Of a DNA stretch of 20,000 nucleotides, positions 124 through 20,000 are shown piece by piece. The notes beneath the pieces are model-generated. The model was given only the letters and a program-made list of their open reading frames with translations. It was not told the origin of the DNA and did no database searches. Made by a program: the position numbers and the translations under genes. Source of the stretch: Rhizaria sp. SCN 62-66 (lineage: Eukaryota); NCBI GenBank assembly GCA_001724265.1, contig MEDY01000212.1:45152-65151 (forward strand). Direction: 5' to 3'. The stretch's first letter is position 1. Each line of letters begins with the position of its first letter.

Positions 124-2026
124 ATGTCTCAAGAGTCTGCTCCAGCAGCAGCAGCAGCAGCAGCAGCTGATTCGAGCGTCCCCAGTCCGTGCAAGCACGA
201 CGAAGCTCGGGACGACGCCAACAAGCAGCTGGCCGTGTGCCCCATTCTGCGCATACCGCGCTTCGACGACTGGCACCTGCACCTGCGCGACGGCGCCGCG
301 CTACCCGAGTACGTCTGGGCGTCTGCGCAGCGGTGCCGGCGAGCGCTGGTAATGCCAAACCTGGCGCCCCCCGTCACCACCACTGCGGCCGCGCTGGCCT
401 ACCGCGCGCGCATCCTCGCCGCGCTCGCCGCCGCCGCCGCGCGCCGCGGGCTGGCCGCTCCGCCGCCCTTCACGCCGCTGATGACGCTCTACTTGACGGA
501 GGCCACGACGGCGGAGGAGATCGCGCTCGCGGCCCGCTCGGGTGCGGTCGTGGCCGCGAAGCTCTACCCCGCCGGCGCCACCACCAACGCGGCCCAGGGA
601 GTGCGGGATATAGCCCGGCTGGACCCCGTGCTGCGCGCAATGGCCCGCGCAGGACTCGTGCTGTGCGTGCACGGTGAAACGACGGACCCGGCCACGGACG
701 TGTTCGATCGGGAGGCGCAGTTCATCGCCACTGTGCTCGTGCCGCTGCTGGCCCGGCACCCGCGGCTGCACGTGGTCATGGAACACGTGACCTCCGCCGC
801 CGCGGTCGCGCTCGTCGACGCTGACACAGTCCCGGCAAACACGCAGACACCAACGCAAACGCATGCAGCGGGCGCTTCAAGTGCCGGCGCAAACGCTGCT
901 TCAAGTTGTTCAAGTGTGCCTATCGCGGGGCGCGTTGCCGCGACGATCACCCCGCAACACATGCTGTTCTCGCGCAACGCGCTGTTCCTGGGCGGCAAGC
1001 TGCGTCCGCACGCCTACTGCCTACCCGTGTACAAGACGGAGCGCGACCGCTGGGCGGTGGCGGGCGCGGCCGCGGGTACCGGGGTCAGGCACCCAGAGCG
1101 GTTCTTCGCCGGGACCGACTCCGCGCCGCACGCAATAGACGCAAAATGTAAGAAAAAGCATACGACTAGCAGTTTTAAGTTGTTATATAGTCAATATCCT
1201 TGTTATATCCCTCAAAAAAATGGTTTCGCCTATCTTTAACCACCCCTCACTTCCCTCACTTGTGCCGCTTGTCTGTCCTCACTCGCGCCCGTAACCAGAG
1301 TGCTCCGCCTGCTGCGCGGGCTGCTATACGGCGCCGGATGCCGCCGCGCTGTACGCGGAGGCCTTTCTGCGCCACGCCGAGGCGCTGCTGCTGGCCGGCG
1401 ACCTCACCGCGGCAGCCACGGTGACCGTGGGCCGGTTGCGCGCCTTCCTGGCGCGGGACGGTGCCGCGTTCTACGCCCGTGCTGCCCGCGCGGCCAGAGC
1501 GGCCGCGGAGGGGACGGCAACGGAGGGCAACCCTGCTGGCGATGACAACCGCTCCAGCAGTGGCAGTGGCAGTGCGGGGGGCGCGGACCCCGCGCTGTTG
1601 GCCGCACTCGACTTGCCGCAGCACAGCACCGCGACGGCGACTGAGAACAATGACAGCAGAGACAGCAACGACGACAGCAGCGACGGGCTGGTGTTGCTGC
1701 ACTGCCGCTGCGACTGCTGCTGCTGCGGCAACGGCGGCGGAGGCGGCGGCGGCGGCCCGCGCGGGTGCCCCGCAGGCGCCCCGGGCTGCTGTCTCACGCG
1801 GGCCAACAACGAGCAGGCGCAGGCTCTACAACTGCAACAGCAGCAGCAAAGTGACTACAACGACGATGCGGCGGCGGTGACAGTGCGGATGGCGGCGGCA
1901 ATGGCGGTGCGCCTGCGGTGGACACACGCCGCACACGTCACAGAGTGCGCAGAAGGCAGAAAGGTCTCCGAGTGCACAGAAGTAACTCTCGGGAGCAGCG
2001 GCGTTAGCAGCGTTGGTAAGCAGTGA
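124..2026 (+). CDS. URA4: Class II (E. coli PyrC / fungal URA4 / plant-type) dihydroorotase. Exons 124-1147 and 1299-2026; ~583 aa if the TAG at the splice junction (codon 342) is read as sense; ends TGA
   Basis: Exon 1 has DWHLHLRDG, VMPNL, AKLYPAGATTN (carbamylated Lys), VHGE, MEHVT, ATITPQH, YCLPVYK and GTDSAPH. After the intron the frame starting at 1301 gives CSACCAGCYTAPDAAALYAEAF...LRAFLARDGAAFY, matching E. coli [22 protein letters not shown]...FEAFCSVNGPQFY, and joins ORF 1421..2026. Confidence 0.93.
1148..1298 (+). other. Spliceosomal intron (151 nt, phase 1) in dihydroorotase
   Basis: Donor GTAAGA at 1148, an abrupt AT-rich interior, a pyrimidine tract at ~1230-1290 and acceptor CAG at 1296-1298. 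An in-frame TAA at 1292 excludes upstream acceptors; using AG 1299-1300 would shift the frame. Confidence 0.85.
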
Positions 2027-2376
2027 GTCGGCCGCGATAGCAAGCACTTGCGAGATGAGCGTCGAGCTCTGCGCAGCGTGCAAACACGGTGAGTCACACA
2101 CCCGCACGGACGGCATCGACAAGGACAATCCTGCGGGAATTGCAGTCAAAGCATGGCCATGTGAACTTCATGAAAAATGACATTTTTTCGAACGACTAAT
2201 GTATCAAAATTGTTAATCAACACCAAAATACAGAGCAAAATAACCAAGGTTTCAGAAAACTAAGGATCGAATATACGAACAGCGTCTGTGCCGGTGACAG
2301 CGAGAGCGACGTTGGCATAGTGCGAGAGATTGCTCACCACCGCAAAGCCCCCGCGCTGGTCTGCGTCGTCACGTCA

Positions 2377-2901
2377 TCAGAACGCCTTCTTGCGCGACTG
2401 CTCCTCCGACCGCGCCTGCGCATACTGCGTCTGCGCAGACTGGGTCGGCGACTGCGCAGGTGACTGCGGCGGCGAGGAGGGCACGTAAACGTCGCGGGCG
2501 GGCATTGGGGCCGCCCCATGCGGCCTCGCACGCACCGCGTCCTCGATCTGCCCCGCGCGCTGCCGCACCGCGCCCGCCGCCGCCTGTGGGGACTTGCTAC
2601 CGCCGCTGCCGCTGCTGCCACCGCTGCCGCTGCTGCCGCTGGAGAGGCCAACGACGTGGAGGATGAAGAGGACGGTGCGGCCAAGGTAGCCGAAGAACTC
2701 GACGCGGAACCGCTCACTGTTGACGGGAAGTGCAGAAAAAAGCGTGATAAACGATGTCGTGATGAGAGTGTCGTTCGCTATATGTGTCAGAGACGTCGAT
2801 AAGAAGCGTGAAGTAAGAGTTGGGAGCATGATTGAGATGAGAGGGACGTACGAAAGGACGATGGCGGCGACAAGCGCCACGATAAAGAGCAGCACAAACA
2901 T
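2377..2901 (-). CDS. Small hypothetical protein (~129 aa) with an N-terminal signal peptide or TM segment, a second hydrophobic stretch and a Ser/Gly/Pro/Gln-rich tail. Exons 2901-2852 and 2716-2377; ends TGA
   Basis: MFVLLFIVALVAAIVLS|ERFRVEFFGYLGRTVLFILHVVGL... Exon 2 is GC-rich with coding-like codon use. Donor GTACGT at 2851 and pyrimidine tract plus CAG at 2719-2717 preserve the frame. No family recognised. Confidence 0.6.
   Translation of the reverse strand: MFVLLFIVALVAAIVLSYVPLISIMLPTLTSRFLSTSLTHIANDTLITTSFITLFSALPVNSERFRVEFFGYLGRTVLFILHVVGLSSGSSGSGGSSGSGGSKSPQAAAGAVRQRAGQIEDAVRARPHGAAPMPARDVYVPSSPPQSPAQSPTQSAQTQYAQARSEEQSRKKAF
2717..2851 (-). other. Putative spliceosomal intron (135 nt, 3n, stop-free in frame)
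   Basis: GTACGT donor (the same hexamer as the 17119 intron) and TTTTTTCTGCACTTCCCGTCAACAG acceptor. Because it is 3n and stop-free, the ORF track reads through it. Confidence 0.6.
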
Positions 2902-3748
2902 GGGCCAGTGCAACTCAAGCAATGCTAACTTCAACGAGTCTGTTGCTGCTAAACAGCAAGCAAATGAGAGGTGGAGTGAGAACAAGGACGAGATTGCAAG
3001 AGAATATTAGCACGCAGAAAAACGGGGTGAAACTTCGGCGGGAATTTTACAGGGTTACCGGACACTGCAGAAGATATAAAATCATGAACAAAATGGTGCG
3101 ATCGTAAATCGTATGGGAGTTTCCAAATCACGACTATTTAATGTCCAAACAGGCGAGAAATCTCAGCACTAATCCCCCTTTTTTAGCGGACTGGGGTTGC
3201 TCCGAAGAGGAATTGCGTGCAGTGTGCGATTGTATGCAGCAAATCGGTCGTCAAAGAGTCTGAAACTCATTTCGTTATTATTGAACGTACCTTCTCTGTA
3301 TTATATTTTTGAGAATGTTTCTCAATTTCTTGGCTGCATGCACTCTCGCCCCTAGCTCGACTGCGCTTCGAAGCGCTTAAAACAAAGGGTCATATCCCGC
3401 TCTCTACCAACATTGCCAAGTATTTGTTGTCCACCGCGCAGTTTTAGTATTTTTTATTTTCACCTGTTTCCTACTGCGAGTTTGTTTCACGCTGAACTCA
3501 CACCGCGACGACATATTACTGCGTTCGTCGCGCCGACAACGCAATCCTGTTCAGCAATGTCACGCACGCATAACTCAACAGACTTTGCAGCAGCCTAAAC
3601 AAATCATCATCGTATAGCTTCAACTACTGCTGTTGATGCTGTCGTTCCGAATGTACCGCGTGCCAAGTAGTTTCGGCCCCTCTCCAACAACAGCTTTACT
3701 AGTTTCATCGGCGACAACATGTGACAACGACGACAGTGACAGACAGCA

Positions 3749-4095
3749 ATGACGGCTCTCACGACGGAAGCGACAAGTGTATGTATGCCTTGGGGTCTCA
3801 AGTTAGCACTAGTAACAAACAGCCTCACTCCGCACATGCGCACGCACACGGGCGAGAAGCCCTATTTGTGCTCTTATGAAGGTTGTGGTAGTAGGTTCAC
3901 TATGAAGGGCTACCTTTACGTACACACCCGCACGCTCACGGACGAGAAGCTTTATCAGTGCGAGCGATGCCAGTTGTGATTTGGCCTGTTAGAGTTGGCC
4001 AACATCAGCACCTTAAGCGCCACATGATGCGGATTCACAAACTCGCCAGTAGCGCTGCCGCTGGCGCTGACTCTGACTCTTGTGAGCTCTTGTGA
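3749..4095 (+). pseudogene. Decayed C2H2 (Kruppel-type) zinc-finger gene remnant with about three fingers
   Basis: [50 protein letters not shown], then QHQHLKRHMMRIH in another frame. Lesions: the last His of finger 2 is Leu, the linker is TDEKLY, there is a TGA at 3977-3979, a 14-nt frameshifting insertion at 3986-3999, and several stops upstream in frame. Confidence 0.8.
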
Positions 4096-5115
4096 GCTCT
4101 GTGACTTACCACCGTCGTTGCAGTGGTTGTCCAAAGCCTCCACAAGTTTGCAACGCACATGTTGTTGATGTTCGCGCTTTACACGTCCGATTGGCTTCGC
4201 TCGCTATGCTCTTGCGAAGATATATAGCTTCTACTGGAATAATAAATATGTCCATGGTTAATTTCACCGTTAAAAGGTGTATCAACTTTAAAATTAGCGC
4301 TACAACAAGAGATTGTACTTCGTTTTATCTTGTTTTATCCAAAACTCCCCGTCCAAATGCGTTTGTGGTTTAAAAGTTTTCTGGTGACTGGTGACTGTGA
4401 TCAGCCCGATCGCGATTCGATCGACTCGCAGTGAGAATGTGGTCGGCGAAAACGGAGTATTGGCGCTGTACCGGATCGACACGGCGGTTCAATTTCAATT
4501 TTCCAACTAGAATAGTTGCTTTACTACTCAACTGTAATTTATTTCTTGTGCGGCGCTATGTGCTGTCTGCGCTGGACAACCGGATGTTAAGCGATGATGG
4601 CAACACGGTGGATGCGTTCAAACCGCCCCTTGACCGCGCCCGCCGCATCCCTATTCTCCAGCGCAGCTACTCATCCTTGTGCAGCGTTGCCACCGCGCGT
4701 ATGCACCTCTCGCGCAAGTTTGTGGCTGTTTGCGTCTGATGCACACGCCACGGCACTTGTCCGGAGTCGCTGGAGAGGTGGCTCTGCCACCCCCTGTCCT
4801 TCTCCCCTCGCCAGGTGGCCGCAACGCATACTAGACGCCGTGAAATCGCGTTTGATAGCCGCGTTTCATTTTTCTTGTCGCGAATCGCTCTCTTAATTAT
4901 TCCTGTCAGCTGTTTTTACTTCTAATCTCTCAAAACTCACGCACATATCCTCACAATTCTCCTCTCTTCTTCCCTTCCCTCTTAACTTTTAAAATTCAAA
5001 CAGCCTCTTTCTTTTTCGACAACAAGGCCCACCAAGCTTTGTTGCTGTTTCTTCTCCTCCGCCCCCCGCGTTGCCCGCTCACCACGCCCTGCGCGCCCCC
5101 GCCGGAGCCCCGCCG

Positions 5116-8100
5116 ATGAGCCGCCCCGCGTCCGCGTCGTCCGCTGCGGCCGACGCCCGCGACCGCGTACGCTCGCTCATGGTCGCCGACGACCTGCCCG
5201 CCTACCACCTCTCCATCGCCTCCATCGAGCTGGGACTGGGCGTCTCCGTCAAGCGCGGTCTCAGCGCCGAGCAGGTCGCCACGAACCGGCTCAAGTACGG
5301 CTCCAACCGTCTGCGCGAGCCCAAACAGCTTCACCCGGTGCTCATGTTCCTCAAGCACATGGTCAACCCGATCACCTTCATCCTCTACTGCGTCTTCATC
5401 ATCCAGGTACGAGTCCACCAATGTTGTTGCCTATAATATATGTTCATTATATTTATATGTATTTTTGCTATCTTACTATATCATCACGCTTTTATTTTAA
5501 ATAGCCCTCTCTCCTCATGATCTCCCCGCAATATATCCTCTTGTGCTGCTCCTCACTACCAGGCCGTGTCCAACGAATGGATCGACGCAGGCGTGGTGAT
5601 GTTCCTCATCGTCGCCAACGCGATCCTGGGCTTTGTCCAGGAGCTTAAGTCGGTGATGTCGCTCGCGGCGCTGCAGTCGATGTCGTCGCCCGTGGCCACA
5701 GTAATGCGCGACGGCGCGTCGATGGCCGTGGACATCAACGACATCGTCGTCGGCGACGTCGTGCTGCTCAAGCAGGGCGACCAGGTCCCCGCCGACCTCC
5801 GCGTCGCGCAGGCGCTCAACCTCGAGGTCGACGAAGCGCTGCTGACGGGCGAGTCGGTGCCGATCTTCAAGCACACGGACCCACTGCCGCTGCCCAAGCA
5901 GGAGCGCGCCGACCTCATCGTCTCGGTCGCGCTCGGCGACCGTAGCAACATGGCCTTCCGGCAGACCACGGTCGTGGCCGGCACGGGTGTGGGCGTCGTC
6001 GTCGCGGTCGGCGAGGCCACCAAGGTGGGCCAGCTCTCGGAGCGGCTCCTCAGCGCGGGCAACCCCAAGACGCCGCTGGAGCGCAAGATGGCCATCTTCA
6101 TGTACTCGGTCTTCGGCATGGCCATCATCCTCGCCATCATCATCTTCGGCGTCACCGGCTTCACCTTCGAGCACGACACGATCGTCTACGCCTCGGCCAC
6201 CGGCATCGCGATCCTGCCCGAAAGTCTCATCGCCGTCGTCACCGTCACGCTCTCGCTGGCGACGTCGCGCATGGCGGCCCGCAAGGCCATCGTGCGCAAG
6301 ATGGGCGCCGTCGAGATCCTCGGCAACGTCACCAACATCTGCTCCGACAAGACCGGCACGCTCACGGAGGGCAAGATGGTCGTCAAGCGCTTCTGGCCCG
6401 TCGGCTCCAAGTACATCTACCACGTCACGGGTGGCACCATGGACGCCACCGGCGGCTTCGGCCTCGAGCACGACCCCACGGACCCAGACGCGCCGCCCGT
6501 CGAGCCGGGCCGCCGCTCCTCGCGCGCCGCCTCCCGGGCCTCGCGCGCGGGCACACGCGCCTCGCGCGCCGCCTCGGGCACCGGCGCCGCCTCTGTCGGC
6601 TCTATTGGTGGGACTGTCTCCGGCCGCCCCAGCACGGCCACGGGCGAGTCGCGGCGCTTCCGCGCGCCGTCGTACGCGCACACGGTGGCCAAGGTCTCGC
6701 AGGGGCTGCCCGAGTCTGACTTCTCGGCGGTGCAGAAGGCGGCCGAGGAGCTAGCGCTGGTCTGCGCGATGTGCAACAACACGCAGCTGCAGCACGACGA
6801 GGAGGAGGACAAGCTCATCGGCACCGGCAACCCCACGGAGCTGGCGCTGCAGGTGCTCGCGTACAAGCTGCAGAGGTCCCCTTACTACTTCGAGGAGGAC
6901 GAGGGCTGGCTAAAGTGCGGCCAGTGGGCCTTCGACTCGGGCGTCAAGTGCATGTCGGTCGGCCTCGTGCGCGACGCCGAGCTCAAGGAGGAGGACGAGG
7001 CCTCGGGCCGTGAGGACGGCGACAACTCGCTCGAGTGCAAGGTGCTGCTCAAGGGCGCGCCCGAGGCCGTGCTGCCCAAGTGCCCAGGCGCCAACGTCGA
7101 CGAAGTCATGGCCAAGGTCGCTCACCTTGCCGGCCAGGGCTACCGCGTGCTGGCCTGCGCCGCGCGCGACGACCTCAGGCTGGCCGACCGCGACGGCGCG
7201 CGTCTGCATGACATCGACCGGCACCTGGCCGAGTCCAACATGCGCTTCGTGGGGCTTGTCGTGGTGTACGACCCGCCGCGCGAGGAGTCGTACGTGGCCG
7301 TGCGCAAGTGCAAGGAGGCGGGCGTGACGTTCCACATGGTGACGGGCGACCACCACGGCACGGCCGAGGCGATCGCGCGCAAGCTGGGCATCCTGGAGGA
7401 CCACCAGGGCCGCGACCGCGTCACCACGGGGCCAGTGTTCGATGCCATGACGGAGGAGATGATCGACCTGATGGAGGAGCTGCCGCTGGTTATCGCACGC
7501 TGCTCGCCCGAGAGCAAGGTCAAGATGGTCGAGGCGCTGCACAGGCGCCGCCGCATCGTGGCCATGACCGGCGACGGCATCAATGACGCGCCCGCGATCA
7601 AGATCGCCGACGTGGGCGCTTGCATGGGCATCGCGGGCACGGACGTCACCAAGGGCGCCGCCGACATCGTGCTGGCCGACGACAATATCGCGACGCTGGT
7701 CAACGCCGTCGAAGAGGGCCGCCACGTCGCCGCCTCGATCCGCAAGTTCATCGTGCACCTGCTTACGTCCAACATCGCCGAAGTGATCGTGCTCATGATC
7801 GGGCTCGCGCTGCGCGACGACAACAACGAGGTCGTTTTCCCGCTCTCCCCGCTGCAGATCCTCTGGGTCAACATGTTCACGTCGACACCCCCCGCCATCG
7901 GTCTGTCGCTGGACGAGAAGAACCCTGCGCTGATGCAGCAGCCGCCGGACCACCGGCCTCTCTTTTCGCTCGAGGTCATGACGGACCAGTTCATCTACGG
8001 CATCATTCTCGGCGGCCTCACCTTCGGCGGCTACCTCGTCGTTATCTTCGGCTTCGGCGATGGCGAGCTGGGCACCCACTGCAACAAGACCTCCGGCGAG

Positions 8101-8535
8101 CACACGTGCCACCTGGTGTGGACGGCGCGCACGACGGCCTTCGCGACGCTCAACACGCTACTGCTCTTCCACGGCTACGTGTGCCGCGATCCGCGGCAGA
8201 GCGTGTTCGCGCGCTCCTGGCTCAGCAACAAGGTGCTCCTGTGGTCTCTCATCGTGGGCTTCGCGCTGCTCATGCCCGTCATCTACATCCCGGGCGTCGC
8301 GCGCACGCTCTTCCGCCACGCCTACATCTCCTGGGAGTGGGTCATCGTGCTCGTCTGCATCGTCCTGCACCTGCTGCTCACCGATCTGTACAAGTTCGTC
8401 AAGCGCCAGCTCTACGGCGAGAACCACTGGGAGGCCGACGGCGGCCGCGCCAGCGCCGGCATCAAGGGCGGCAGCCGCGGCGCGCGCACCGTCATCACCG
8501 AGGACGGCGGCCGCATCGAAATGATTCCCGTCTAA
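5116..8535 (+). CDS. ENA1: P-type ATPase, type IID (ENA, Na+/K+ efflux). Exons 5116-5406 and 5563-8535; ~1087 aa; ends TAA
   Basis: GLSAEQV...YGSNRL, LEVDEALLTGES, LPESL, ICSDKTGTLTEGKM (phospho-Asp; ENA-type GKM), GNPTE, FDSGVKCMS, KGAPE, MVTGDH, LPLVIARCSPESKVKMVEALHRR, AMTGDGINDAP, FPLSPLQILWVNMFTSTPPAIGLSLD. The LPLVIARCSP...ALHRR segment is characteristic of yeast ENA1 and relatives. The start could alternatively be ATG 5179. Confidence 0.92.
5407..5562 (+). other. Spliceosomal intron (156 nt, phase 0) in the ENA ATPase
   Basis: CAG|GTACGA donor, AT-rich interior, pyrimidine tract and CAG|GCC acceptor. Splicing joins ...YCVFIIQ to AVSNEWIDAGVV..., the expected TM1-TM2 region. Confidence 0.92.
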
Positions 8536-10048: not shown

Positions 10049-12295
10049 TCACTGCATGAGGAAGGCGACGATGCCGGTATCGAAGCCGCAGCCGCCACAG
10101 CCGGCCCGCAGCCCCGCCTCGGCCGCCGGGCGCCCCCAGGGGCCCGCAGCAGAAGGAGCATTGGTACTCGCACCAGCACTAGCATTTGCACTCGAGTAGA
10201 CTGCGGCCACGGCGGGGGCCTGGGCGAACACAGGGGCCAACGCACAGCACCCTTTGTTGCTCTGAGGCAACTGCGACTGCGACTGGGCGTGCGCGTTGTG
10301 CGCTGCGTAGACGGCCCCCAGCAGAGCCCGCGTCCGCGCCGCCGCCGCGGCCACGGCCGGACACGAGCACAGCAGAGCCAACGCAGCGACACCCACCGCA
10401 CCAGGCCCAGACGCAGACGCAGAGTCTGTCGGCAGCCAGAGGGGCGACTGGGGGCCGGCCTTGGCGGCGGCCGCGGCGGCTGCGGCGACGGAGACGGCGT
10501 CAGGCACCTCCGCGATGTGCGCCCCCGCCTCGCAGCCGCAAGCCATGCTGCGACTGCCAGCGCTGGCTTCAGCGGTGTTGTTTGCGATGTGAGTATTACT
10601 CGCGAGTGCGAGTGCTAGGGAGCAGTGGCAGGAGCAGCAGCCGAGCCAGAGCAGAGGCACCGCGCCGTCCGAAGTTAGGCCGCCGCCACCCCGTGTCGCG
10701 GAAGTTAGGCCGCGCGGTTCGAGCACGCCCGTCGGGCACAGCGGGCACTGCGACAGCGCGGCGGCCACGGCGGCGGCGGCGGCGGGCGCGGGGCCCGGGG
10801 CAGCGCTCTCGGCCACGGACAGCAGCGCAGCGGCGTCAGCAGCAGCCTCAGCGGCGGCCGCAGCCCCCGCGGCGGCCTCGGCCTCGGCAGCCACCCACCA
10901 ATCGCAGTCGCTGTCGCCGGTCTGCGCATTGGCGTTCGTGTTAGCTGTGCCATTGTAGTACGCAGCGGCAGCCTCCTCGTCGAATGCTTGTTGCTGCTGC
11001 TGTTGTTGCTGTTGTTGGTTATGCAGCCACTGCTGTTGTTGTTGCCGTTGCTGGCTCTAATCTTCGTCCCGACATGCCTGGCCGACGCCGCCATACGCGG
11101 CAGCAGCACCGCCGCGACTGTACCCGTCGCCGTCGCCGTCGATGGCGGCCGCGACGGCCGACTGGACCTCAGCCAGTTCCTCGCGGAGGCTCTCAGCCAG
11201 CAGCGCGTCCTTCATCGCCAGCATGATGTCCACCATGTCCTCGCTCGTCAGCACGCTGCCAGTGCTGTCAGGGGCGGCGGCGGCGGCGGCGGCGAGACCT
11301 GTGAGGATCAGAGACGAGCCGTCGTCGCACATGCTCCCAGTGTTGTGACCAGACTGCGCCTGCGCCTGTGTCTGTCGGTCCGGCGACGCTCGGGCTGAGG
11401 CCTGCGCCGAGGCAGTGCGGGAGATGGCGGCGACGGCGTTGCGGCGGTACCACTGGAGGAACCACTCCTTGCTGTTGCCGCCGGAGCTGCTGCGCGTCAC
11501 CGCGGCGTTGTGGCGGCTGCTGTCGTCGTCGTCGCCCATCGCGGGGCTGCACGTAGTACCGCCGAGGCTGGTGACGGCGGCGGTGGGGACGCGTGACAGC
11601 ACCGCCGGCAGTCCGAAGCCGGGAAACGACGACGAGGATGAGGACGAGAGCGACGAGGAGGATGAGGGCGTTGTTGTGATGGGAGACGAGCCAGAGCTGG
11701 AGCCGGCGCTGGCACTGGGGCCGAAAATGGAGCCGAAGCTAGCGTTGGTGCTGGCAATAGCCGCAGCGTTGGAGTTAGCGTTGCTGCCGAAAGGGGTCGA
11801 GAAACCTTGCTGTGGAGCTGTACGGGCTGCGTTAGGCGTCATCGGGAACGACGCGATAGTAGCAGCAGCGCCGCTGTTGCTGCTGCTTGTGCTGAGGGCG
11901 GACTGAATGATGCCATGGAAGGCGGAGGCCATGCTGGCAGCGGCGCGACGGGCACTCAAGCGGCCGGCGGGAGCACTGCCACCGCAGCTGCCGGCGTGAA
12001 CGTCGGCGGTGTTGCCGTTCCCGGTGAGCCCCAGACCAAGGCCGAGCACGAGGGCGTTCTCGTTGAAGCAGCTGTCGTCGTCGTCGTCGTCGTCGTTGCC
12101 GTCCTGGCCGTCGCCGTTGCTGGCGTTCGAGCCGCACGAGGAGCCGCGGATGCGGGTAAGGATCTCGGAGCGGTTTGCGCGTACGAGGTCGGCACAACGC
12201 GACATCATGCTCGCCTTAATCGACTCGCGCGTGCTCAAACCACGCGCCTTGGCCGCCGCGAGAGACGCGCCGGGAGACGGGCGGGGACGGAACAT
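10049..12295 (-). CDS. RPAIN: RPA-interacting protein (RPAIN/RIP), ~748 aa with long low-complexity insertions. One in-frame TAG at 11059-11057 (codon 413); ends TGA
   Basis: N-terminal RESIKASMMSRCADLVRANRSEILTRIR (RPA_interact_N-like). Middle LTSEDMVDIMLAMKDALLAESLREE. C-terminal Zn finger CPLC...CSC...LLGAVYAAH...GC...PVF...LRAGCGGCGFDTGIV (RPA_interact_C-like). ORFs 11057..12364 and 10049..10894 share a frame and only the TAG separates them. Confidence 0.8.
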
Positions 12296-13538
12296 GAGCT
12301 GGCGGAATCGACACCACGAGAATGGGAAATAGATGCGAAAATAATGAGCCGTACCGCACAACAAATTGTAAACAATAGCAAATAATCACGGAGAATATGG
12401 AAATAACATCGAAAGCGCCGTTTACGGTCGGTTATACGTTGTGACAAGTGCAAACCAGGGTCTCTAAGCCTTATTAAAAGGGCGCCAACTGAACAAACGG
12501 AAACAGCAGAATAAGCCGGAATCGACGGTTTTACAAACTCAATGGCATGAAATCGGTACGAAACGCACATATAAACGCGTATTTGTTGATTTCTAGAAGG
12601 TCTTTAAGTTTTAACACGCGAGAAAAGCATATACCCAAGAAACCTGCAGACTATCTCGACGCGACAAGATATACACAGGTAAAACCAAGCTCATAACAAA
12701 TAAAATACTGTGAAAGATTTTCAATAAATATTATTAAGCCCATGGAATTTTAATATTATTATTATTACTGCTTAGATTAATATATCTAAAAATTGTATCG
12801 TTTTTTACCATTATAAATAATTGAAAACTGTTGAAACATATATCAATAACATTTTAAATTGTTAGTTTCTTTTGATGCTTCTCTGCCAATGACAGTAAAA
12901 AGCTTTTTTTCTTATTGATCTTGGAGCAAACCAAGGTTCTGACTTGCACAAAAATGTTAAAAACTGTTAATATCAAACAAAACGTTTTAATGTATTTTAA
13001 TTCTATTTAAATAAAATTAAACACTATTACAACTTGATAATAAGATAGTCGTATAATTATAAAATTAAAACAGTATATAATATTATTTAATAATTTATGT
13101 TAAATTTCTTAACTGAATATTTGACTCTCACAGTCAAATCAAAGAGTGTAGCTCTTTAATCAAGAGGTTCGCTTGACGCATGATTAAATATGATGGATAG
13201 CAAGGAGCAGTTACCAATGGTCATAATCACAATGATAGATTTGATTGGGAAATTTTGTATTACAGTGTACGTATATGATAAGTTTGTAACAGGTTAGTTT
13301 TTTGATTCTGGGCTCATCACCACAGAAAGACAACATTCGGCAAGTCCGAAGCAACGCAAATCCGACATTATTAAAATCTCCTAAGACGTTGCCCACGACA
13401 CATATTTAGCTTCATAAAAACTAAAACTCGAATTTAATTTTAACAAATTTTGTTCGTATCTCGTATATTTTTATGAGATGACCTTACTCACTCCGCAGTG
13501 GTGTAAGAGTACTTGTTATCGCTAGAGGGCTGATTTGC

Positions 13539-16500
13539 CTAATCGGACTCAGACTTCTTGTTGGAGTCATCGTCATCATCCTTGGCAGCGGCAGCCTCCT
13601 CCTCAGCCTTCTTGGCAGCGGCAGCCTCCTCCTCAGCCTGCTTCGCAGCAGCAGCCTCCTCCTCAGCCTTCTTGGCAGCGGCAGCCTCCTCCTCAGCCTG
13701 CTTCGCAGCAGCAGCCTCCTCCTCAGCCTTCTTGGCGGCAGCGGCAGCAGCGGCAGCCGGCAGCAGCGGCAGCTTCCTCCTCGGCCTTCTTGGCGGCGGC
13801 GGCCTCAGCAGCGGCCTTGGCCTCAGCCTTAGCCTTAGCGGCGGCAGCCTCCTCCTCAGCCTTGATGCGAGCAGCCTCAGCCTCCGCAGCAGCCTTAGCC
13901 TCAGCAGCAGCCTTAGCCTTAGCCTCGGCCTCAGCCTTGGCCTTGGCGGCGGCAGCCTCCTCCTCAGCAGCGGCCTCGGCAGCCGCCTTGGCCTCGGCCT
14001 CGGCCTTGGCCTTGGCGGCCTGCTTGCGCTTCTGGCTGTTGCCGGCCTGGCCCGCCTCGGGGAACTCGTCCGCGTCCACCTTGACGTTGGCCACTCTCTC
14101 GTCAGCGCTAGCGCCAGCAGGAGCCTTGGGGTGGGCGTGAGCGTTAGAGTGCGCCGCGGGGGCGGCAGCGGCGAGGCCGTGGGCCTGGCGCATGATGCCG
14201 GCCCAGCCGCCGGGGGCCGCCGCGGCCTTGGTGGCGGGAACCACAGGCGCAGCAGCAGCAGCAGCAGCGGCGGCGGCCTTCTTGCCCTTGGGCTGCTGCT
14301 GCTGCTGCTGCTTAGGCTCAGCGGCAGAGGCAGCAGCGGCAGCGGGAGCAGCCGCCTCGGCGGCCGCCTTCTGGTTCTTCTTGTTGTTGCCATGAGTGTT
14401 CTCCTTCTTCTCAGTCGTCGTCGTCGTGGCAGCAGCAGAAGCAGCCTTGGCCTCAGCGGCGGCGGCAGCGGCGGCCTTCTTGTCGGCCGCAGCGGCGGCA
14501 GCGGCCTTCTTGTCGGCGTCAGCGGCCTTCTTGTCGGCGTCAGCGGCGGCGGCCTTGGAGGCCATCTCGTGCTGCCGGCGCTCGCGCTCCTTGTCGGCGG
14601 CGGCGGCGCGGTCCGCGGCGGCCTTGTTGGCGGCGGCCTGCGCGTCCGCGAGCGCCTTCTGCTCCGCGGCCGCGGCCTCGCGCGTGCTCTTGGCGGCGAG
14701 CGCCTGCTGGCGCTGCACAGCTGTCGCGGCGAGTCGGCGCACGACGGCCACGTCGATGGGGAAGGCCTTGGCGTCGAGGTCGGCCAGCAGCGCCGTGAAG
14801 GCCGCGAGCGACAGCGCGTCGGGGTCGCAGCGCCGCAGCACGCGCTCCAGGTATTGGCCCACCTGCGTGGCCAGCACGTGCAGCTCCTTGGCGTCGGCCG
14901 CGGCCTGCTCAGCCATCTGAGTCTCGAGCGCCAGGTGCTGCGACACGACCGAGGCCGGCAGTGACAGCGCGCGCGCGCGGGCCTGCTCCTGGCGCGCCTG
15001 CAGCGCCGCCGCGCGGCAGCCCGCGACGCGCTCGGCGAGGAACTCGTGCAGCCGCTGCGCCGACGCCAGGTGCGCGCGCAGGGCCGGGAAGAAGCCCGCG
15101 CGCTCGGCGGCGGCGGCGGTGGCGGCCTTGGCGCCCAGCTCCTGCAGGCGCAGCGCGAGCCGCTGGTAGAGAGCGATCGTGAGCCCGTGGAGCGCGTCGC
15201 CGGTCGCCTTGTCGGCGGCCAGCGCGGCGGCCGCGGCCGAGGTGTCGGCCTGGCGCGCGGAGACGTCGCCGCGCAGCGCCGCGTAGCGCGTGCGCACGGC
15301 CTCGGCGCGCGCCGCGGCCTCGCCGAGCTGGGCCTCGGCCGTGGCCAGCTCGACCTCGGCGCGCTTGAGCTGCGCCTCGAGCAGGCGCTTGCGCTCGCGC
15401 GCGTCGTCGCGCTTGGCCGTCAGCTCGGCCACGCGCGCGGCGTGCGGCGCCAGGTCGCGCTGCTGCAGCGCCTCCAGCTCGGCCGCCTTGGTCGAGGAGC
15501 CAGAGGCGAGCGCGGCGGCGCGGTCCAGCTTGGCCTGCGCCTGCGCCAGCTCGCGGCACACGCCCGTCTCGAGCAGGTGGAACGCCAGCTGCACGTCGTG
15601 CTCGTGCTTCGGCCGCTCCTGCAGCGCAGACAGCAGCGGCGCTAGCGCTGAGCTGGCCCTGGTCAGCGCCGCCGCAGAGGCCTTGTTGGCGTCCTGCAGC
15701 ACGCGAAGCGGGTCGCTGCCCGCGGTGGCGGTCGCAGCGCCCGCGGGGCCGGCGCTGGCGGCGATGTTCTGGGAGCCCCAGGGGCCCTGCGGCGCGAGGG
15801 GGGCCGCGGCGGCCGCGGCGGCGGCGGACGCGGCGGGCACGGCCTGCTTGGCGGCGAGCGCGCTGCCCAGCCCGGCGACGTGGACCGACGCCTCGCGCTG
15901 CGCGGCGAGCAGCTTGCGCACGAGCGCGGCGTAGCCCGCGGCGGCGGGCGCGGCGGCCAGCGGCTTGCCCAGCAGCACGAGCTGATCCAGCAGCCACGTC
16001 GCCTGCGCCAGCTCGCTGCCGAGCACGTTGGCGATGAGGCGCGCGAGGTTGGCCTTGGCGGTCAGGACGACGCCTGCGTGGCCGGGTGCGGCGCGCGCGG
16101 CGGGGTCAGCGCAGAGGCGGGTGAGGAAGGCCAGCGCGAGGTCGTCGAGCGCGGGCGACGACGCCAGCGCGGTCGCGATCGGCGTCGGCGCGCCCGCGGC
16201 TGCTGCGGCGGCCTGTTGGAGCTTGAGCGTCCACGTGCGGGGCAGTTCCGGGTCCGCGCGGGGGTCCCAGGCCTTAGCCGCGGCCTCCAGGGAGAAAATG
16301 TCGCTGAAGTCGGCGGGCGCGGCCACCGCAGGCAGAACGACAGCAGCAGCGGGCTTGGGGGCAGCAGCAGCGGCGGGGGCGGGGGCGGCAGCGGGCTTGG
16401 CAGCAGCGGGGGCGGCGGGGGTCTCGTCGTCGGGGATGCCGCGGATGCCGTTGTCGATAATGCGGGGGCCGTTGTTGTTGTTCTCGCCGTCCTTCTTGCC

Positions 16501-17178
16501 GCGGCGGCGGGCAGCCTTGCCACCAGCAGCAGCGGCGGCGGCGGGAGTAGCAGCAGCGCTCTCGTCGTCGTCAGGGATGAAGGCGACGGGGCCCGGCGCG
16601 GAGCCGGCCTTAAGGGCCGAGGCCGGCGCGGCGGCCTCGGCGAGCCCGGACTGGAGCGTCTTAAGCATGAGCGGGAGCGTAACGAGCCCCGAGGCCGATG
16701 AGGACAGGAGGCTGTAAGCCATCTCAATGTCGTCGCGGCTGTAGTCATCCGCGAACAGCACGCGGCACGCCTCGATGGTCAGCGCGCGCGTCGCGGGCTG
16801 CGCGGGCTTCTCGCCGCCAAAACTCACCTTGCTGCGGAGGAGACAAGCGGAGTTAGTTGTGAGGCGCACGAAGCAAGACAGTGAGGGACGGGGACGCGGA
16901 CAGGCAGTTGGGCGTTTGAGGTCGAGGTTAGGAAGTCAAGAAAAGATATGGAGTGATAGAGCATATGTAAAGAGATAAATAGGTGAGTCTGGGATATTTC
17001 CGAGTGCTCTTAAGTCAATAGTTAGATAAGAGTGCCTGTTTGTGCGGAGTACAGCGCGTGGCATGCGCTAGTGAGAAAGGCAAGAGTCGGCAAACGGGGG
17101 GATTTGGCGAGAGACGTACACAGCCTTCTTCTGGCCCTGGTGAACAGAGCCCTGGGAAGCAACCTGAGCGCTAGACAT
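13539..17178 (-). CDS. Large Ala-rich coiled-coil protein of unknown function (~1116 aa). Exons 17178-17120 and 16831-13539, with an apparent 1-nt insertion at ~13758. Ends at TAG 13541-13539, or TGA 13490-13488 if TAG is sense
   Basis: 1048-codon ORF with strong GC3 bias. Exon 1 MSSAQVASQGSVHQGQKKAV joins in phase 2 to KVSFGGEK. Long heptad-like helices (e.g. RVAELTAKRDDARERKRLLEAQLKRAEVELATAEAQL). The E/K/A repeat tail continues in the frame of ORF 13539..14393. Confidence 0.8.
13581..13736 (-). repeat. Coding tandem repeat: five 30-nt units encoding K[K/Q]AEEEAAAA, with an exact 60-nt higher-order duplication
   Basis: Unit ctt(g/c)gcagc(g/a)gcagcctcctcctcagcct(t/g). 13611-13670 is identical to 13671-13730. 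Degenerate copies extend to ~14010. Confidence 0.95.
16832..17119 (-). other. Spliceosomal intron (288 nt, phase 2) in the coiled-coil gene
   Basis: GTACGT donor at 17119, branch-point-like CTAAC at ~16855, and pyrimidine tract TCCGCTTGTCTCCTCCGCAG acceptor. The join GT+C (Val) keeps the frame. Confidence 0.85.
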
Positions 17179-17844: not shown

Positions 17845-18978
17845 ATGAACAAGCGCAAGGGCGACCATAGCAAGTCCTCCGGCGGCGTCGTCTCGTTCGC
17901 CGACGACGCCGCGGACCCGTCCCCCTCGGCCGACTCCTACGGCGGCGCCTCCAAGGGCTCGGCCGGCACAGGCACCAAGAAGTCCCGCCCCGCCGCCGAC
18001 CCCGCTAAGGGCTTCGGCGCCGCGCTCGCCGCCATGATCAGCATCCCCACGCCCGCGCCCGCCGCTACCGCTGCCGCTGCCGCTGCTGCTGCTACCGCTA
18101 AGCCCGTTGCTGCTACCAAGCCCGCTGCTGCGCCGCAGTCTGCCGCGCGCGCCGCCTTCGCTGCCGACAAGCACATCAAGCACGCCGAGCGCCTCTCCAA
18201 GAAGGAGGCCGCTGCTGCCAGCGCCGACGCTAACGCTGACGACGCCGCTGCACCCGCGAGCATCGCCTCTGCTGCTGCGGCCGCTGCGATGGACGCGAAG
18301 CTGAGCTCGAAGCTGCAGCGGCGGCTGGCGCGCTCGGGCGTCGCGCTGCCGGGCGCGGCGGTGCCCGCAGCCGTGATCGCGCGCGCCGAGGCCGAGGCCG
18401 CCAAGGCGCTGGCCGAGGCGCAGGCGCGCGTGCGCGAGCGGCAGCGCCGCCGCCAGCGCCGCCTGCTGCTGAGCAAGGACCACATGACCGCTGACTTCAC
18501 GGACCTAGAGCGGCGGCTGCTGCGGGTGGCAACCAAGGGCGTGGTGACGCTCTTCAACGTGGTCGCGCAGCAGCAGAAGGATCTCAGCTCGCTCGAGGCC
18601 GCGGGCTCGGGCACGGCTGAGGGCATCAAAGATAAAGCGACGAAGCACCTCTCGCAGGACGGGTTCGTTGACCTGCTCAAGAAGCAGTCCGCCGCCGCCG
18701 CCGCCACCGCCGCGGCCGCCGCGGCCGCCGCCAAGAAGAAGAAGTCCACGTCCAACGGCAGCGACGACGACGACGACAGCGACAAGAGTGGCAGCGGTGA
18801 CGACGATGATGACGACGATAAGAAGGCCAAGGCCAAGAAGGGCGACGTGTCCGCGAGCAGCAAGGCAGCCGCGGCGGGGCTAAAGTGGAAGGCGCTGGAC
18901 GAAGGGTACCTCCTGGGCAAGAACAAGATGAAGGACTGGGAGGCCACCGACTCGTCCGAGGACGAGGGCTCCGACTGA
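17845..18978 (+). CDS. RRP15: Ribosomal RNA-processing protein 15 (60S biogenesis), ~377 aa; ends TGA
   Basis: Rrp15 signature ERRLLRVATKGVVTLFNVVAQQQK, then LSQDGFVDLLKK and the C-terminal WKALDEGYLLGKNKMKDWE acidic tail. The first ATG after the pyrimidine tract and CAG (17830-17832) is 17845; an upstream coding exon is not excluded. Confidence 0.92.
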   Translation: MNKRKGDHSKSSGGVVSFADDAADPSPSADSYGGASKGSAGTGTKKSRPAADPAKGFGAALAAMISIPTPAPAATAAAAAAAATAKPVAATKPAAAPQSAARAAFAADKHIKHAERLSKKEAAAASADANADDAAAPASIASAAAAAAMDAKLSSKLQRRLARSGVALPGAAVPAAVIARAEAEAAKALAEAQARVRERQRRRQRRLLLSKDHMTADFTDLERRLLRVATKGVVTLFNVVAQQQKDLSSLEAAGSGTAEGIKDKATKHLSQDGFVDLLKKQSAAAAATAAAAAAAAKKKKSTSNGSDDDDDSDKSGSGDDDDDDDKKAKAKKGDVSASSKAAAAGLKWKALDEGYLLGKNKMKDWEATDSSEDEGSD

Positions 18979-19834
18979 GCGAGTAAGCTTGCGACGCCGC
19001 GCGGACCGTGGGCTGCTACAGATGCCAGTGTGACCGTGAGTTTATCTGCTGCTGCTGCAGAGTCATAACAGTGTCTCAGTCTGATGGGAGACGACAACGA
19101 CAAAAACGGGATATTGGAGGGCCAGGGGCTGATATTAATAGATACTATAACACGTTTTATGTAATTTTATTGGGTCATTCAATGACGATGCTATTCAAGT
19201 TTACATGAGTAAGTTGCGGATTGTGTTGCGCATAGATAGTTTTAAGAATGAAGTAATTATTTACGTATCAGTTGTTTCGTTTAAGATAGTTTTGTATTTG
19301 CGTTATGAAGGCGAGTGAGCAGCAAGCAGGCGAACACGCGCTATAGCGACAACGATAACAGTACAACGTAATTGTAAGAGCATTACAGCAACAACTGAGC
19401 ATCAACAGTCACAGCTGAGTAACAATAGACACACGTAAGCAAGACACTGAGACAACTGAGACTGAAACAGAAAGCTCAATATAAAGCTACACCAGTCCTC
19501 AGAGTGACAACGGTGATACAGAGTATGTTCATTGCATCCTGAGGACACAACAGCAACGCTGAGAGTCACTTCTAGTCAGCAGCTACTTGAAGCAGCTGCT
19601 GCGTGGCTAAGTTGGGTCAATACATCACATAGCGTTTCAAGTATAGTCTGTCGACAAATCAGGGACCCCACTCGTCCGTCTAGCAAGCTAGACTGGACTC
19701 GCTGGAGTCGTTTCGAGGCTGTTTCACGCCAGCAGAGTCGGCTCAAATGAGGAGCAGAGGTTCGGATGTGTGGTTAGAGGTTGAAGTTGTATTGATTGAG
19801 GTTGTTTTCGCGCGGGGACGCAGGCGTGACGCAC

Positions 19835-20000
19835 TTAATCGAGGGCGACCTTCTTGCCGTTGCCGTTGGCACGGTTCTTGCGGTTGAGGATGGACTGGCG
19901 AGAGCCGTTCATGTAGAGGTCGGTGACGACGACGTTGGAGGTGTGGATGGGGACCTGGACAGAGGTGCCGTTGTTCTTGTCGGTGGTGAGGCCCTCGAGG
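19835..20000 (-). CDS. RPL26: 60S ribosomal protein L26 (uL24), 3' end only; the 5' part lies beyond the window; ends TAA
   Basis: Manual translation from 19999: LEGLTTDKNNGTSVQVPIHTSNVVVTDLYMNGSRQSILNRKNRANGNGKKVALD*, which aligns with eukaryotic L26 [41 protein letters not shown]. Not in the ORF track. Confidence 0.9.
   Translation of the reverse strand, partial: LEGLTTDKNNGTSVQVPIHTSNVVVTDLYMNGSRQSILNRKNRANGNGKKVALD

What the first reader, a model, noticed from the sequence alone, without database searches (positions are those of the whole stretch)
124..20000. Candidate variant nuclear genetic code: UAG as a sense codon while UAA and UGA remain stops
Seen: two unrelated conserved genes (dihydroorotase and RPAIN) each need exactly one TAG read as an amino acid to give a full-length protein, with no other lesions and with conserved motifs downstream. 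The six confident gene ends are TGA (2024-2026, 2379-2377, 10051-10049, 18976-18978) or TAA (8533-8535, 19837-19835). The only TAG-ended ORF (13541) reads on 16 codons to a TGA. The 3' contexts (TAG-TGC, TAG-AGC, TAG-GCA) are not the CARYYA leaky-readthrough motif. Established: UAA and UAG almost always change meaning together; split meanings are rare (UAG=Gln in Iotanema spirale, UAG=Leu in rhizarian exLh, and a few ciliates). Inference: UAG is reassigned here, probably to Gln (poly-Gln context) or Glu (conserved dihydroorotase position), though Leu is not excluded. Only 2-3 sites are visible, so this is a hypothesis.
Basis: partly seen in the sequence, partly recalled or inferred. Interest (0 to 1): 0.92.

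Follow-up and report, generated by a model that had tools for sequence, protein, structure and literature searches.

The report
Possible UAG sense codon, unproven
In DNA of an unknown GC-rich wastewater microbe with a nucleus, TAG "stop" triplets sit inside genes that keep looking like genes behind them; this could mean a changed genetic code, but one window cannot settle it.

Summary
The sequence facts hold in part. Dihydroorotase (DHOase) is real. A canonical GTAAG...CAG intron (1148-1298) builds an in-frame TAG (T1147|A1299 G1300) at a column that is Glu in 118 of 119 homologues. The second gene (10049-12295, minus) has one in-frame TAG (11057-11059) inside one continuous coding-like frame. 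It is not RPAIN by any test: no Pfam match and no homologue among 1.84 billion proteins. The DNA behind both stops recurs in public assemblies (7 and 6 contigs), so they are not one-off assembly errors. A third TAG (13539-13541) is followed by 16 coding-like codons and then TGA. The six firm gene ends are TGA x4 and TAA x2.

There are cautions. 74% of one-step nonsense mutations in these genes would give TAG, so "only TAG" is weak evidence. DHOase conservation drops behind the TAG (16/36 conserved columns kept, against 115/126 before it). A third gene carries an apparent frameshift. No genome, tRNA, eRF1 or RNA reads could be examined. A 56%-identical relative appears to use TAG as a stop.

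Verdict: UAG read as sense, most likely Glu, is about even odds. Real premature stops are the main rival. The idea is worth a cheap decisive test.

The parts
124..1147 (+). Dihydroorotase exon 1 (341 codons plus T1147, the first base of the split codon)
   Evidence: TIGR00856 at 4.6e-78. PDB dihydroorotases, 17 sequences, best 6.8e-68. 115 of 126 family columns that are >=90% conserved are kept.
1148..1298 (+). Intron, 151 nt, AT-rich, GTAAGA...AACCAG, phase 1
   Evidence: Read from the sequence. GC falls to 0.47. It has the same style as the ATPase intron 5407-5562 (GTACGA...TACCAG) and the gene F intron 16832-17119 (GTACGT...CCGCAG). The relative P0126 has an intron at the same place.
1147..1300 (+). 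Split codon T1147 | A1299 G1300 = TAG in the spliced message
   Evidence: The column is Glu in 118 of 119 aligned homologues; the exception is P0126, which reads into its own intron. T1147 is fixed by ORFs P0125 and P0245, found on 4+3 contigs.
1299..2026 (+). Dihydroorotase exon 2, 241 codons then TGA
   Evidence: The spliced tail aligns to family profile positions 4-65 at 42.8 bits. There are 0 stops, against 1-6 in the other five frames, and 75/5000 simulations stay open. But only 16 of 36 conserved columns are kept, and the last ~40 core family positions are not found in any of the three forward frames.
10049..12295 (-).
   Evidence: The ORF frame is the best codon frame in most windows on both sides of the TAG, though the signal is weak right at it. 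No Pfam, Atlas or HMMER relatives.
11057..11059 (-). In-frame TAG (context GAA GAT TAG AGC; ...CRDED*SQQRQQQQQ...)
   Evidence: The 412-aa ORF that stops here (P0246) is on 6 contigs from two sources. The 335 codons behind it have 0 stops, and 22/5000 simulations stay open. The first in-frame ATG behind the TAG is about 190 codons on.
13488..13541 (-). TAG 13539-13541, then 16 codons (ANQPSSDNKYSYTTAE), then TGA 13488-13490
   Evidence: The codon score of the 16 codons is 0.51. That value is reached by 1.0% of 2,528 intergenic windows, 2.5% of 204 windows just behind accepted stops, 78% of training coding windows and 27% of held-out coding windows.
13723..17178 (-). Gene F (no family), intron 16832-17119. 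The frame jumps by +1 near 13766-13770 inside a 30-nt tandem array
   Evidence: Frame 0 ends at TGA 13723-13725; frame 1 carries the same KKAEEEAAAA motif on to TAG 13541.
5116..8535 (+). P-type (ENA-like) cation ATPase, intron 5407-5562, TAA stop, no internal stop in 1,088 codons
   Evidence: Pfam PF00690, PF00122, PF13246, PF00702 and PF00689; gene model.
17845..18978 (+). Rrp15-like gene, TGA stop
   Evidence: PF07890 at 1.7e-12.
19835..20000 (-). 3' end of ribosomal protein L26 gene, TAA stop
   Evidence: PF16906 at 1.7e-10.
2377..2715 (-). Last exon of a small membrane-protein-like gene, tandem TGA TGA (2374-2379)
   Evidence: no Pfam family.

Best explanation
The window is nuclear DNA of an uncultured eukaryote that I could not place. 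Its exons are very GC-rich, and its spacers and roughly 150-290-nt GTA[AC]G introns are AT-rich. Bioreactor and wastewater runs hold the stretch nearly whole.

My leading reading, at about even odds, is that this organism translates UAG as an amino acid, most likely glutamate, while UAA and UGA end proteins. The mechanism would be the usual one for such codes: a tRNA with anticodon CUA charged with that amino acid, together with an eRF1 that no longer (or only poorly) recognises UAG. The codon would be rare, about 2-3 per 3,900 codons, as expected for a young reassignment in a genome whose third codon positions are about 90% G or C.

Shown: the TAGs are in the DNA and that DNA recurs in public assemblies; one TAG is built by a canonical splice; the frames behind them stay open and coding-like; the DHOase TAG lies on an invariant Glu.

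Inferred: that UAG is translated at all, which amino acid it gives, and the tRNA/eRF1 mechanism.
For: 1. DHOase. Canonical GT1148...AG1298 is the only frame-keeping splice, and it yields AAA-TAG-TGC. The spliced product aligns without a break across the junction (42.8 bits). The TAG column is Glu in 118/119 homologues. The relative P0126 has the intron at the same place, and its exon ends in G, so GAG is likely there.
2. The DNA recurs. ORFs that include T1147 lie on 4+3 contigs. The ORF that ends at the second TAG lies on 6 contigs from Logan and ENA, and its 90% cluster holds no other member.
3. The frames behind the TAGs are open beyond chance. There are 0 stops in 241 and 335 codons, against 1-8 in the other frames, and 75/5000 and 22/5000 Markov simulations stay open. 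These frames are also the best codon frames in most windows.
4. In the orphan gene, coding signal follows the poly-Q run behind the TAG, about 150 codons before the first in-frame ATG. The stretch behind the TAG is therefore not a separate gene with its own start.
5. No AT-rich intron-like stretch surrounds TAG 11057-11059. The three modelled introns all start GTA[AC]G and are AT-rich.
6. The 16 codons behind TAG 13541 score 0.51, a value reached by 1.0-2.5% of non-coding windows.
7. 0 of 6 firm gene ends use TAG.
8. Acidic neighbours at all three sites (DAK_, DED_S, SESD_A) fit Glu.
Against: 1. There are only 2-3 sites, and 74% of one-step nonsense mutations in these genes give TAG. Two random premature stops would both be TAG with probability about 0.55.
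2. GAG to TAG at an invariant Glu is also exactly what a knock-out mutation would look like.
3. DHOase keeps 115/126 conserved columns before the TAG but only 16/36 behind it. The last ~40 core family positions are not found in any of the three forward frames, and codon scores fall along exon 2. That is the pattern expected if the tail is under weaker constraint.
4. The second gene is an orphan, so nothing independent shows that its tail is translated.
5. Gene F has an apparent frameshift. Lesions or errors therefore do occur in this contig.
6. TAG 13541 is followed by G, as are 5 of the 6 accepted stops. It may simply be a stop.
7. The only relative whose DNA I could read (L072, ATPase 56% identical) has a 1005-codon ORF that ends in TAG and is followed by many stops.
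8. There is no tRNA in the window, no genome and no reads.
Confidence: 0.5

Rival explanations
1. The code is standard and the TAGs are real stops. DHOase and the orphan gene carry young premature stop mutations that are fixed or common in the sampled populations, so the genes are dying or the proteins are truncated. TAG 13541 is the ordinary end of gene F's tail. The frameshift in gene F is a third lesion of the same kind, as in a genome that is shedding genes.
For: - 74% of one-step nonsense paths give TAG.
- GAG to TAG is a single base change at the last exon base.
- Conservation behind the DHOase TAG drops to 16/36, against 115/126 before it, and the family's last ~40 core positions are missing.
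- Gene F has an apparent +1 frame jump.
- TAG 13541 has G at +4, like 5 of 6 accepted stops (note).
- Relative L072 seems to end a gene with TAG.
Against: - Two premature stops among six genes, each the only lesion in its gene, would be unusual for a free-living organism.
- DHOase exon 1 keeps 91% of conserved columns and strong codon bias, so the gene is not long dead.
- Both downstream frames are still open (1.5% and 0.44% by simulation).
- Old decay would also have produced more frameshifts. Only one is seen, inside a tandem repeat.
- The 16 codons behind TAG 13541 look coding.
Confidence: 0.3
2. The code is ambiguous or leaky. UAG is still a stop (for example at 13541) but is read through at useful rates at some sites by a near-cognate or suppressor tRNA. 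Full-length and truncated products would then coexist.
For: - It reconciles the stop-like +4 G at 13541 with the two internal TAGs (+4 T and A).
- The weaker constraint behind the DHOase TAG would fit partial readthrough.
Against: The contexts are not a known leaky motif; that motif is recalled and was checked by reading the sequence only. Nothing here measures readthrough. With three sites the context pattern is anecdotal.
Confidence: 0.1
3. The TAGs are gene-model artefacts and are not in the mature message. Candidates are:
- a non-canonical splice shifted by one base (intron 1147-1297), which would give AAA|GAG;
- a GC-AG intron 1141-1300;
- a hidden 87-nt GT...AG intron that removes TAG 11057-11059 together with the poly-Q run;
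- RNA editing.
For: - The genomic triplet 1298-1300 is GAG, in frame with exon 2, and the profile aligns it to the invariant Glu.
- An in-frame GTCGGG...CAACAAG segment of 87 nt can be drawn around the second TAG (read).
Against: - The one-base shift needs TG...CA intron ends.
- The GC-AG option deletes the conserved Ala-Lys-Glu and shortens a loop that otherwise has the same length as in the family.
- The 87-nt segment is GC-rich, has a poor donor and no pyrimidine tract. The three modelled introns are AT-rich, 151-288 nt, and start GTA[AC]G.
Confidence: 0.07

Closest known systems
Rhizarian exLh (Sainouroidea), UAG = Leu with UAA/UGA as stops (PMC5304391; outline, abstract and section 6 read)
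   Same: A non-ciliate eukaryote in which only UAG would be reassigned. In exLh, bona fide gene ends are only UAA or UGA (56 and 15 of 71).
   Different: exLh has 384 in-frame UAG in 71 genes, mostly at conserved Leu. Here there are 2-3 sites in about 3,900 codons, and the one informative site is an invariant Glu. No relationship to exLh was shown; the organism here is unplaced.
Iotanema spirale (Fornicata), UAG = Gln, UAA the main stop (PMC5304391; abstract and table in section 6 read)
   Same: The meanings of UAG and UAA are decoupled.
   Different: Gln is not favoured here, because the DHOase site is Glu in 118/119 homologues. The genome style here is GC-rich with introns.
Oligohymenophorea sp. 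PL0344, UAG = Glu, UAA = Lys, UGA stop (PMC10553269; abstract read)
   Same: UAG read as glutamate, with suppressor tRNA genes reported there.
   Different: PL0344 is a ciliate with UAA also reassigned. Here UAA ends two genes (8533-8535, 19835-19837). This window has no tRNA.
Phyllopharyngean ciliates, UAG = Leu or Gln, UAA the preferred stop (PMC11687900; abstract read)
   Same: Independent UAG-only reassignments, partly found by mining metagenome data.
   Different: They are ciliates and the amino acids are Leu and Gln. Here TGA is the commonest stop (4 of 6).
Blastocrithidia nonstop, UAR = Glu, UGA = Trp (PMC12153298; only the start of the abstract seen in search listings)
   Same: A stop codon read as glutamate outside the ciliates.
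   Different: All three stops are reassigned there, and trypanosomatid gene organisation is unlike this window (recalled). Here there are introns, genes on both strands, and TGA/TAA as stops.

Membership tests
Nuclear code with UAG as sense and UAA/UGA as stops | Many in-frame UAG in conserved genes, at columns dominated by one amino acid | tested here: inconclusive
   One informative site (DHOase, Glu in 118/119 homologues), one site in an orphan gene, and one ambiguous terminal site. That is 2 internal TAG in 3,910 codons.
Nuclear code with UAG as sense and UAA/UGA as stops | UAG absent from true gene ends | tested here: inconclusive
   0 of 6 firm ends are TAG (TGA x4, TAA x2). A seventh end, 13541, is TAG followed by 16 coding-like codons, but with a stop-like +4 G.
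Nuclear code with UAG as sense and UAA/UGA as stops | UAG present in the mature mRNA (reads across the sites and the splice junction) | not testable with these tools
The protein collection holds no spliced forms.
Nuclear code with UAG as sense and UAA/UGA as stops | A tRNA gene with anticodon CUA | not testable with these tools
   0 tRNA genes in the window, no Rfam match, no genome held.
Nuclear code with UAG as sense and UAA/UGA as stops | Changed stop-codon recognition motifs in eRF1 | not testable with these tools
   There is no eRF1 gene in the window and no other contig of the organism could be reached.
Type II (bacterial-type, homodimeric) dihydroorotase, TIGR00856 | Match to the family model, including the metal-site motifs | tested here: met
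   Exon 1 matches model positions 2-252 at 4.6e-78. The alignment to 4lfy shows DDWHLHLRDG, KLYPAGATTN, VHGE, EH.T and GTDSAPH. The catalytic roles of these motifs are recalled.
Type II (bacterial-type, homodimeric) dihydroorotase, TIGR00856 | Full-length, uninterrupted match above the curated cut-off | tested here: not met
   Exon 1 alone scores 262.6 bits, below the 292.95 cut-off. A TAG lies at the Glu column. The last ~40 core family positions are not detectable in any of the three forward frames.
RPAIN (RPA-interacting protein; Pfam RPA_interact families, names recalled) | Match to any RPA_interact domain model | tested here: not met
   No Pfam family for either half at E<=0.01. At E<=10 the only hit is an unrelated weak one, PF12633 at 0.014.
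RPAIN (RPA-interacting protein; Pfam RPA_interact families, names recalled) | Detectable homologues in other organisms | tested here: not met
   phmmer of the 748-residue read-through (X at TAG) against 1.84 billion representatives found 1 hit, the window's own N-terminal ORF. The Atlas gave no usable hit.

The most novel reading that the evidence does not exclude
An uncultured, phylogenetically unplaced, GC-rich eukaryote of wastewater systems reads UAG as glutamate while keeping both UAA and UGA as stops. I did not meet this code table in the papers I read or listed. It would be a young reassignment caught while the codon is still rare.
Probability: 0.28. Interest if true: 0.85.

Novelty: new variant of a known kind. 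Interest (0 to 1): 0.6.

Why it matters
UAG-only reassignments in nuclear genomes are few, and most are in ciliates. The papers I read describe UAG = Leu or Gln with UAA kept as a stop, and UAG = Glu only together with UAA = Lys.

A non-ciliate lineage with UAG = Glu and two retained stops would add an independent case. It would also catch the change at an early, low-usage stage. That stage bears on how reassignments start: codon capture, or an ambiguous intermediate.

There is a practical side too. Gene callers would truncate this organism's proteins in every wastewater metagenome, as the public ORFs that end at these TAGs already show.

If the TAGs are instead real stops, the window shows a core pyrimidine-synthesis gene being lost, which is ordinary.

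Tried and rejected
- Whole genome: none is held.
No RNA or DNA reads were laid. The run shares are therefore used only to say that bioreactor and wastewater runs hold most of the stretch.
- More contigs of the organism:
  - Metagenome scan with the window's ATPase: none of the 33 pattern matches encodes a relative.
  - Viral-contig scan: none of the 5 pattern matches encodes a relative.
  - Genome-contig scan with P0005: 71 loci, all prokaryotic records at 24-40% identity.
  - Second metagenome scan with P0007: gave L072 only, plus 40 distant loci.
  - The genome search on L072: the record is not held.
- Naming relatives: the listing of cluster members gave no names for P0004-P0008.
- Placement: a FastTree of 38 ATPases puts the window with four unnamed environmental sequences and no named taxon. 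ENA-type ATPases are a poor organismal marker, so I claim no placement.
- RPAIN identity: rejected.
- Gene F homologue search: the candidate list was swamped and nothing scored, not even the protein itself. This says nothing about whether the frameshift recurs.
- Unbiased scan for stops with coding-like flanks: it returned two antisense false positives (TAA at 2486 on the plus strand, TAG at 6188 on the minus strand) and missed the orphan TAG because of its CAA-rich poly-Q flank. The codon score cannot be used as a stand-alone detector.
- Identity with the exLh code (UAG = Leu): not favoured, because usage and the aligned residue differ.
- Rfam: no match in the window.
- Literature: three searches listed no paper on a GC-rich sludge protist with a variant code. 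Supplements were not opened.


Full report
WHAT THE WINDOW IS

The window has 20 kb with coding blocks of 66-79% GC. Third codon positions reach about 90-100% GC in the best genes. Spacers and introns have 17-50% GC.

Gene models:
- Dihydroorotase (DHOase), plus strand: 124-1147 and 1299-2026.
- A small membrane-protein-like gene, minus strand, ending at 2377-2379.
- An ENA-like P-type ATPase, plus strand: 5116-5406 and 5563-8535.
- A low-complexity orphan gene, minus strand: 10049-12295.
- A large gene without a family ('gene F'), minus strand: 17178-17120 and 16831-13723.
- An Rrp15-like gene, plus strand: 17845-18978.
- The 3' end of an L26 ribosomal protein gene, minus strand: 19835-20000.

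The three modelled introns start GTAAGA, GTACGA and GTACGT, end in CAG, are 151, 156 and 288 nt long, and are AT-rich. There is no tRNA and no Rfam family.

Runs labelled bioreactor and wastewater metagenome hold 90-100% of the sampled words of 1120-11100; one of them may be the source.

The ATPase's nearest relatives are four unnamed environmental proteins at 53-61% identity. After them come trypanosomatids, Andalucia, green algae and fungi at 35-45%. A tree groups the window only with the unnamed ones. The organism is therefore unplaced.

SITE 1: DIHYDROOROTASE

Exon 1 is a secure type II dihydroorotase (TIGR00856 at 4.6e-78; 17 PDB sequences, best 6.8e-68).

The exon runs into GTAAGA at 1148. 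The only AG that restores the frame of the homologous downstream block is 1297-1298. The message therefore reads ...GCA AAA T|AG TGC TCC....

The spliced tail aligns as one block across the junction to a profile of 118 homologues (positions 4-65, 42.8 bits, E 2e-15). In a MAFFT alignment the TAG column is Glu in 118 of 119 sequences. The exception, P0126, is a public ORF that reads on into its own intron.

P0126 is 59% identical and is the only eukaryote-like close relative. It has its intron at the same place, and the first base of its split codon is G (Gly codon GGN = G + GT). The ancestral codon was therefore probably GAG (inference).

T1147 is not a one-off error. The public ORFs P0125 and P0245 translate it (..AKCKKK..) and lie on 4 and 3 contigs.

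Alternatives to the canonical splice:
- A GC-AG intron (1141-1300) would delete the conserved Ala-Lys-Glu.
- A one-base-shifted intron (1147-1297) would give AAA|GAG but needs TG...CA ends.
I rate both low.

SITE 2: THE 'RPAIN' GENE

The frame from ATG 12295 to TGA 10049 has one stop, TAG at 11057-11059 (GAA GAT TAG AGC).

I could not confirm the name:
- No Pfam family at E<=0.01, and none relevant at E<=10.
- No usable Atlas hit.
- phmmer of the read-through (X at TAG) against 1.84 billion representatives found only the window's own 412-aa N-terminal ORF.

It is an orphan, so 'conserved motifs downstream' is not established.

What can be shown:
- A codon log-odds score trained on 2,608 codons of the other genes is highest in the ORF frame in most windows on both sides of the TAG. 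The signal is weak right at the TAG and its CAA-rich poly-Q run.
- The 335 codons behind the TAG have no stop, while the other five frames have 3-8. Only 22 of 5,000 first-order Markov simulations stay open.
- Coding signal follows the poly-Q run behind the TAG, about 150 codons before the first in-frame ATG.
- The open frame ends where GC content falls.
- The ORF that ends at this TAG is on 6 contigs from two sources, and its 90% cluster has no other member.
- The surroundings are GC-rich, unlike the three modelled introns. An 87-nt in-frame GT...AG segment can be drawn around the TAG, but it has a poor donor and no pyrimidine tract.

SITE 3: THE TAIL OF GENE F

The repetitive tail of gene F ends ...SESD-TAG (13539-13541) and reads on through ANQPSSDNKYSYTTAE to TGA 13488-13490.

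Those 16 codons score 0.51. That value is reached by 1.0% of 2,528 intergenic windows, 2.5% of 204 windows just behind accepted stops, 78% of training coding windows and 27% of held-out coding windows.

Against this, the next base is G, as it is behind 5 of the 6 accepted stops. The two internal TAGs have T and A there.

THE TALLY AND ITS WEIGHT

The six genes hold 3,910 modelled codons with 2 internal TAG, 0 internal TAA and 0 internal TGA. The firm ends are TGA x4 and TAA x2.

This pattern is weaker than it looks. Given the codon usage, 623 of 846 one-step nonsense paths (74%) lead to TAG. And 0 of 6 TAG ends is unremarkable.

The real argument for a code change is different. Two of six genes each carry exactly one in-frame stop in DNA that recurs in public assemblies, and open, coding-like sequence follows in both. 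In addition, a third TAG is followed by coding-like codons.

RESULTS THAT CUT THE OTHER WAY

1. DHOase keeps 115 of 126 columns that are >=90% conserved before the TAG, but only 16 of 36 behind it.
   - The family's last ~40 core positions are not detectable in any of the three forward frames.
   - They are replaced by about 150 residues of low-complexity sequence with falling codon scores.
   - Part of this may be misalignment around inserts, but it is the pattern expected if the tail is under weaker constraint.
   - It is not simple pseudogene decay, because exon 1 is well kept and exon 2 is still open (75 of 5,000 simulations).
2. Gene F changes frame by +1 near 13766-13770 inside a 30-nt tandem array. 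This is an assembly error or a real lesion. I could not check it in other assemblies.
3. The only relative whose DNA I could read is L072: ATPase 56% identical, about 52% GC, with long ORFs that appear intron-free. Six of its seven long ORFs end in TAA. One 1005-codon ORF ends in TAG and is followed by many stops. If there is a code change, that lineage does not share it.
4. Nothing about a tRNA-CUA, eRF1, RNA or peptides could be tested.

WEIGHING

Under the standard code one needs two young, fixed premature stops in six genes, one of them in a core enzyme. The coding-like stretch behind the third TAG would also have to be chance.

Under a UAG-sense code one needs a rare kind of organism, a separate explanation for the gene F frame jump, and a separate explanation for the divergent DHOase tail.

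I put UAG-as-sense at about 0.5, real stops at about 0.3, leaky or ambiguous decoding at about 0.1, and gene-model artefacts at under 0.1.

If UAG is sense, Glu is the best guess. The single informative column is invariant Glu, and all three sites have acidic neighbours.

COMPARISON WITH WHAT IS KNOWN

UAG-only reassignments are described for:
- the rhizarian exLh (Leu) and Iotanema (Gln) (PMC5304391; abstract and section 6 read);
- phyllopharyngean ciliates (Leu, Gln) (PMC11687900; abstract);
- Oligohymenophorea sp. PL0344 (UAG = Glu, with UAA = Lys) (PMC10553269; abstract).

exLh uses UAG heavily (384 in 71 genes). Here the codon would be rare.

UAG = Glu with both UAA and UGA kept as stops did not appear in anything I read or in three searches. 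Supplements were not seen.

If real, this is a new variant of a known kind, in an unplaced lineage.

VERDICT

The decisive data already exist in public runs: the poly-A RNA of the same community and the DNA runs that hold this contig.

Noticed in passing
window 13581-13806, frame jump near 13766-13770 (minus strand): Gene F's coding frame shifts by +1 inside a 30-nt-period tandem array that encodes KKAEEEAAAA repeats. Frame 0 then ends at TGA 13723-13725, while the same motif continues in frame 1 to TAG 13541. This is either an assembly indel or a real lesion.
   Followed up: partly
window 9748-9781 and 9901-9934: A 34-nt inverted repeat, 94% complementary, with arms 119 nt apart, lies in the AT-rich spacer downstream of the orphan gene. 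It looks like a small MITE-type element or a hairpin.
   Followed up: no
window ~3760-4060 (+): A C2H2 zinc-finger-like fragment (HTGEKPY-type linkers) with about 50% GC and an in-frame TGA looks like a relic or pseudogene. It lies in the spacer between the membrane-protein-like gene and the ATPase. Part of it is the stretch that tripped the read laying filter.
   Followed up: no
window, bases after the stops at 2026, 2377, 8535, 10049, 18978, 19835: Five of the six accepted stops are followed by G. The sixth is a tandem TGA TGA (2374-2379). This may be a termination-context preference, but the numbers are too small to test.
   Followed up: no
window 1500-2023 (+): The DHOase C-terminal half carries about 150 residues of low-complexity insert, including a Cys/Gly run (HCRCDCCCCGNGGGGGGGG). 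It has no detectable match to the family's last ~40 core positions.
   Followed up: partly
L072:1-22212: This is the end of a 317,756-bp metagenome contig from a distant relative (ATPase 56% identical). It has about 52% GC and long ORFs that appear intron-free: NSUN5-like, LRR, Hop2/TBPIP and a 2-oxoacid dehydrogenase E2. Stops are TAA in 6 of 7 long ORFs and TAG in 1. There is no synteny with the window beyond the ATPase.
   Followed up: partly
window 4594-4896 (+): A GC-rich patch (about 63% GC) with a 100-codon ATG ORF lies just upstream of the ATPase start. It may be a 5' exon or UTR of the ATPase or a small gene.
   Followed up: no
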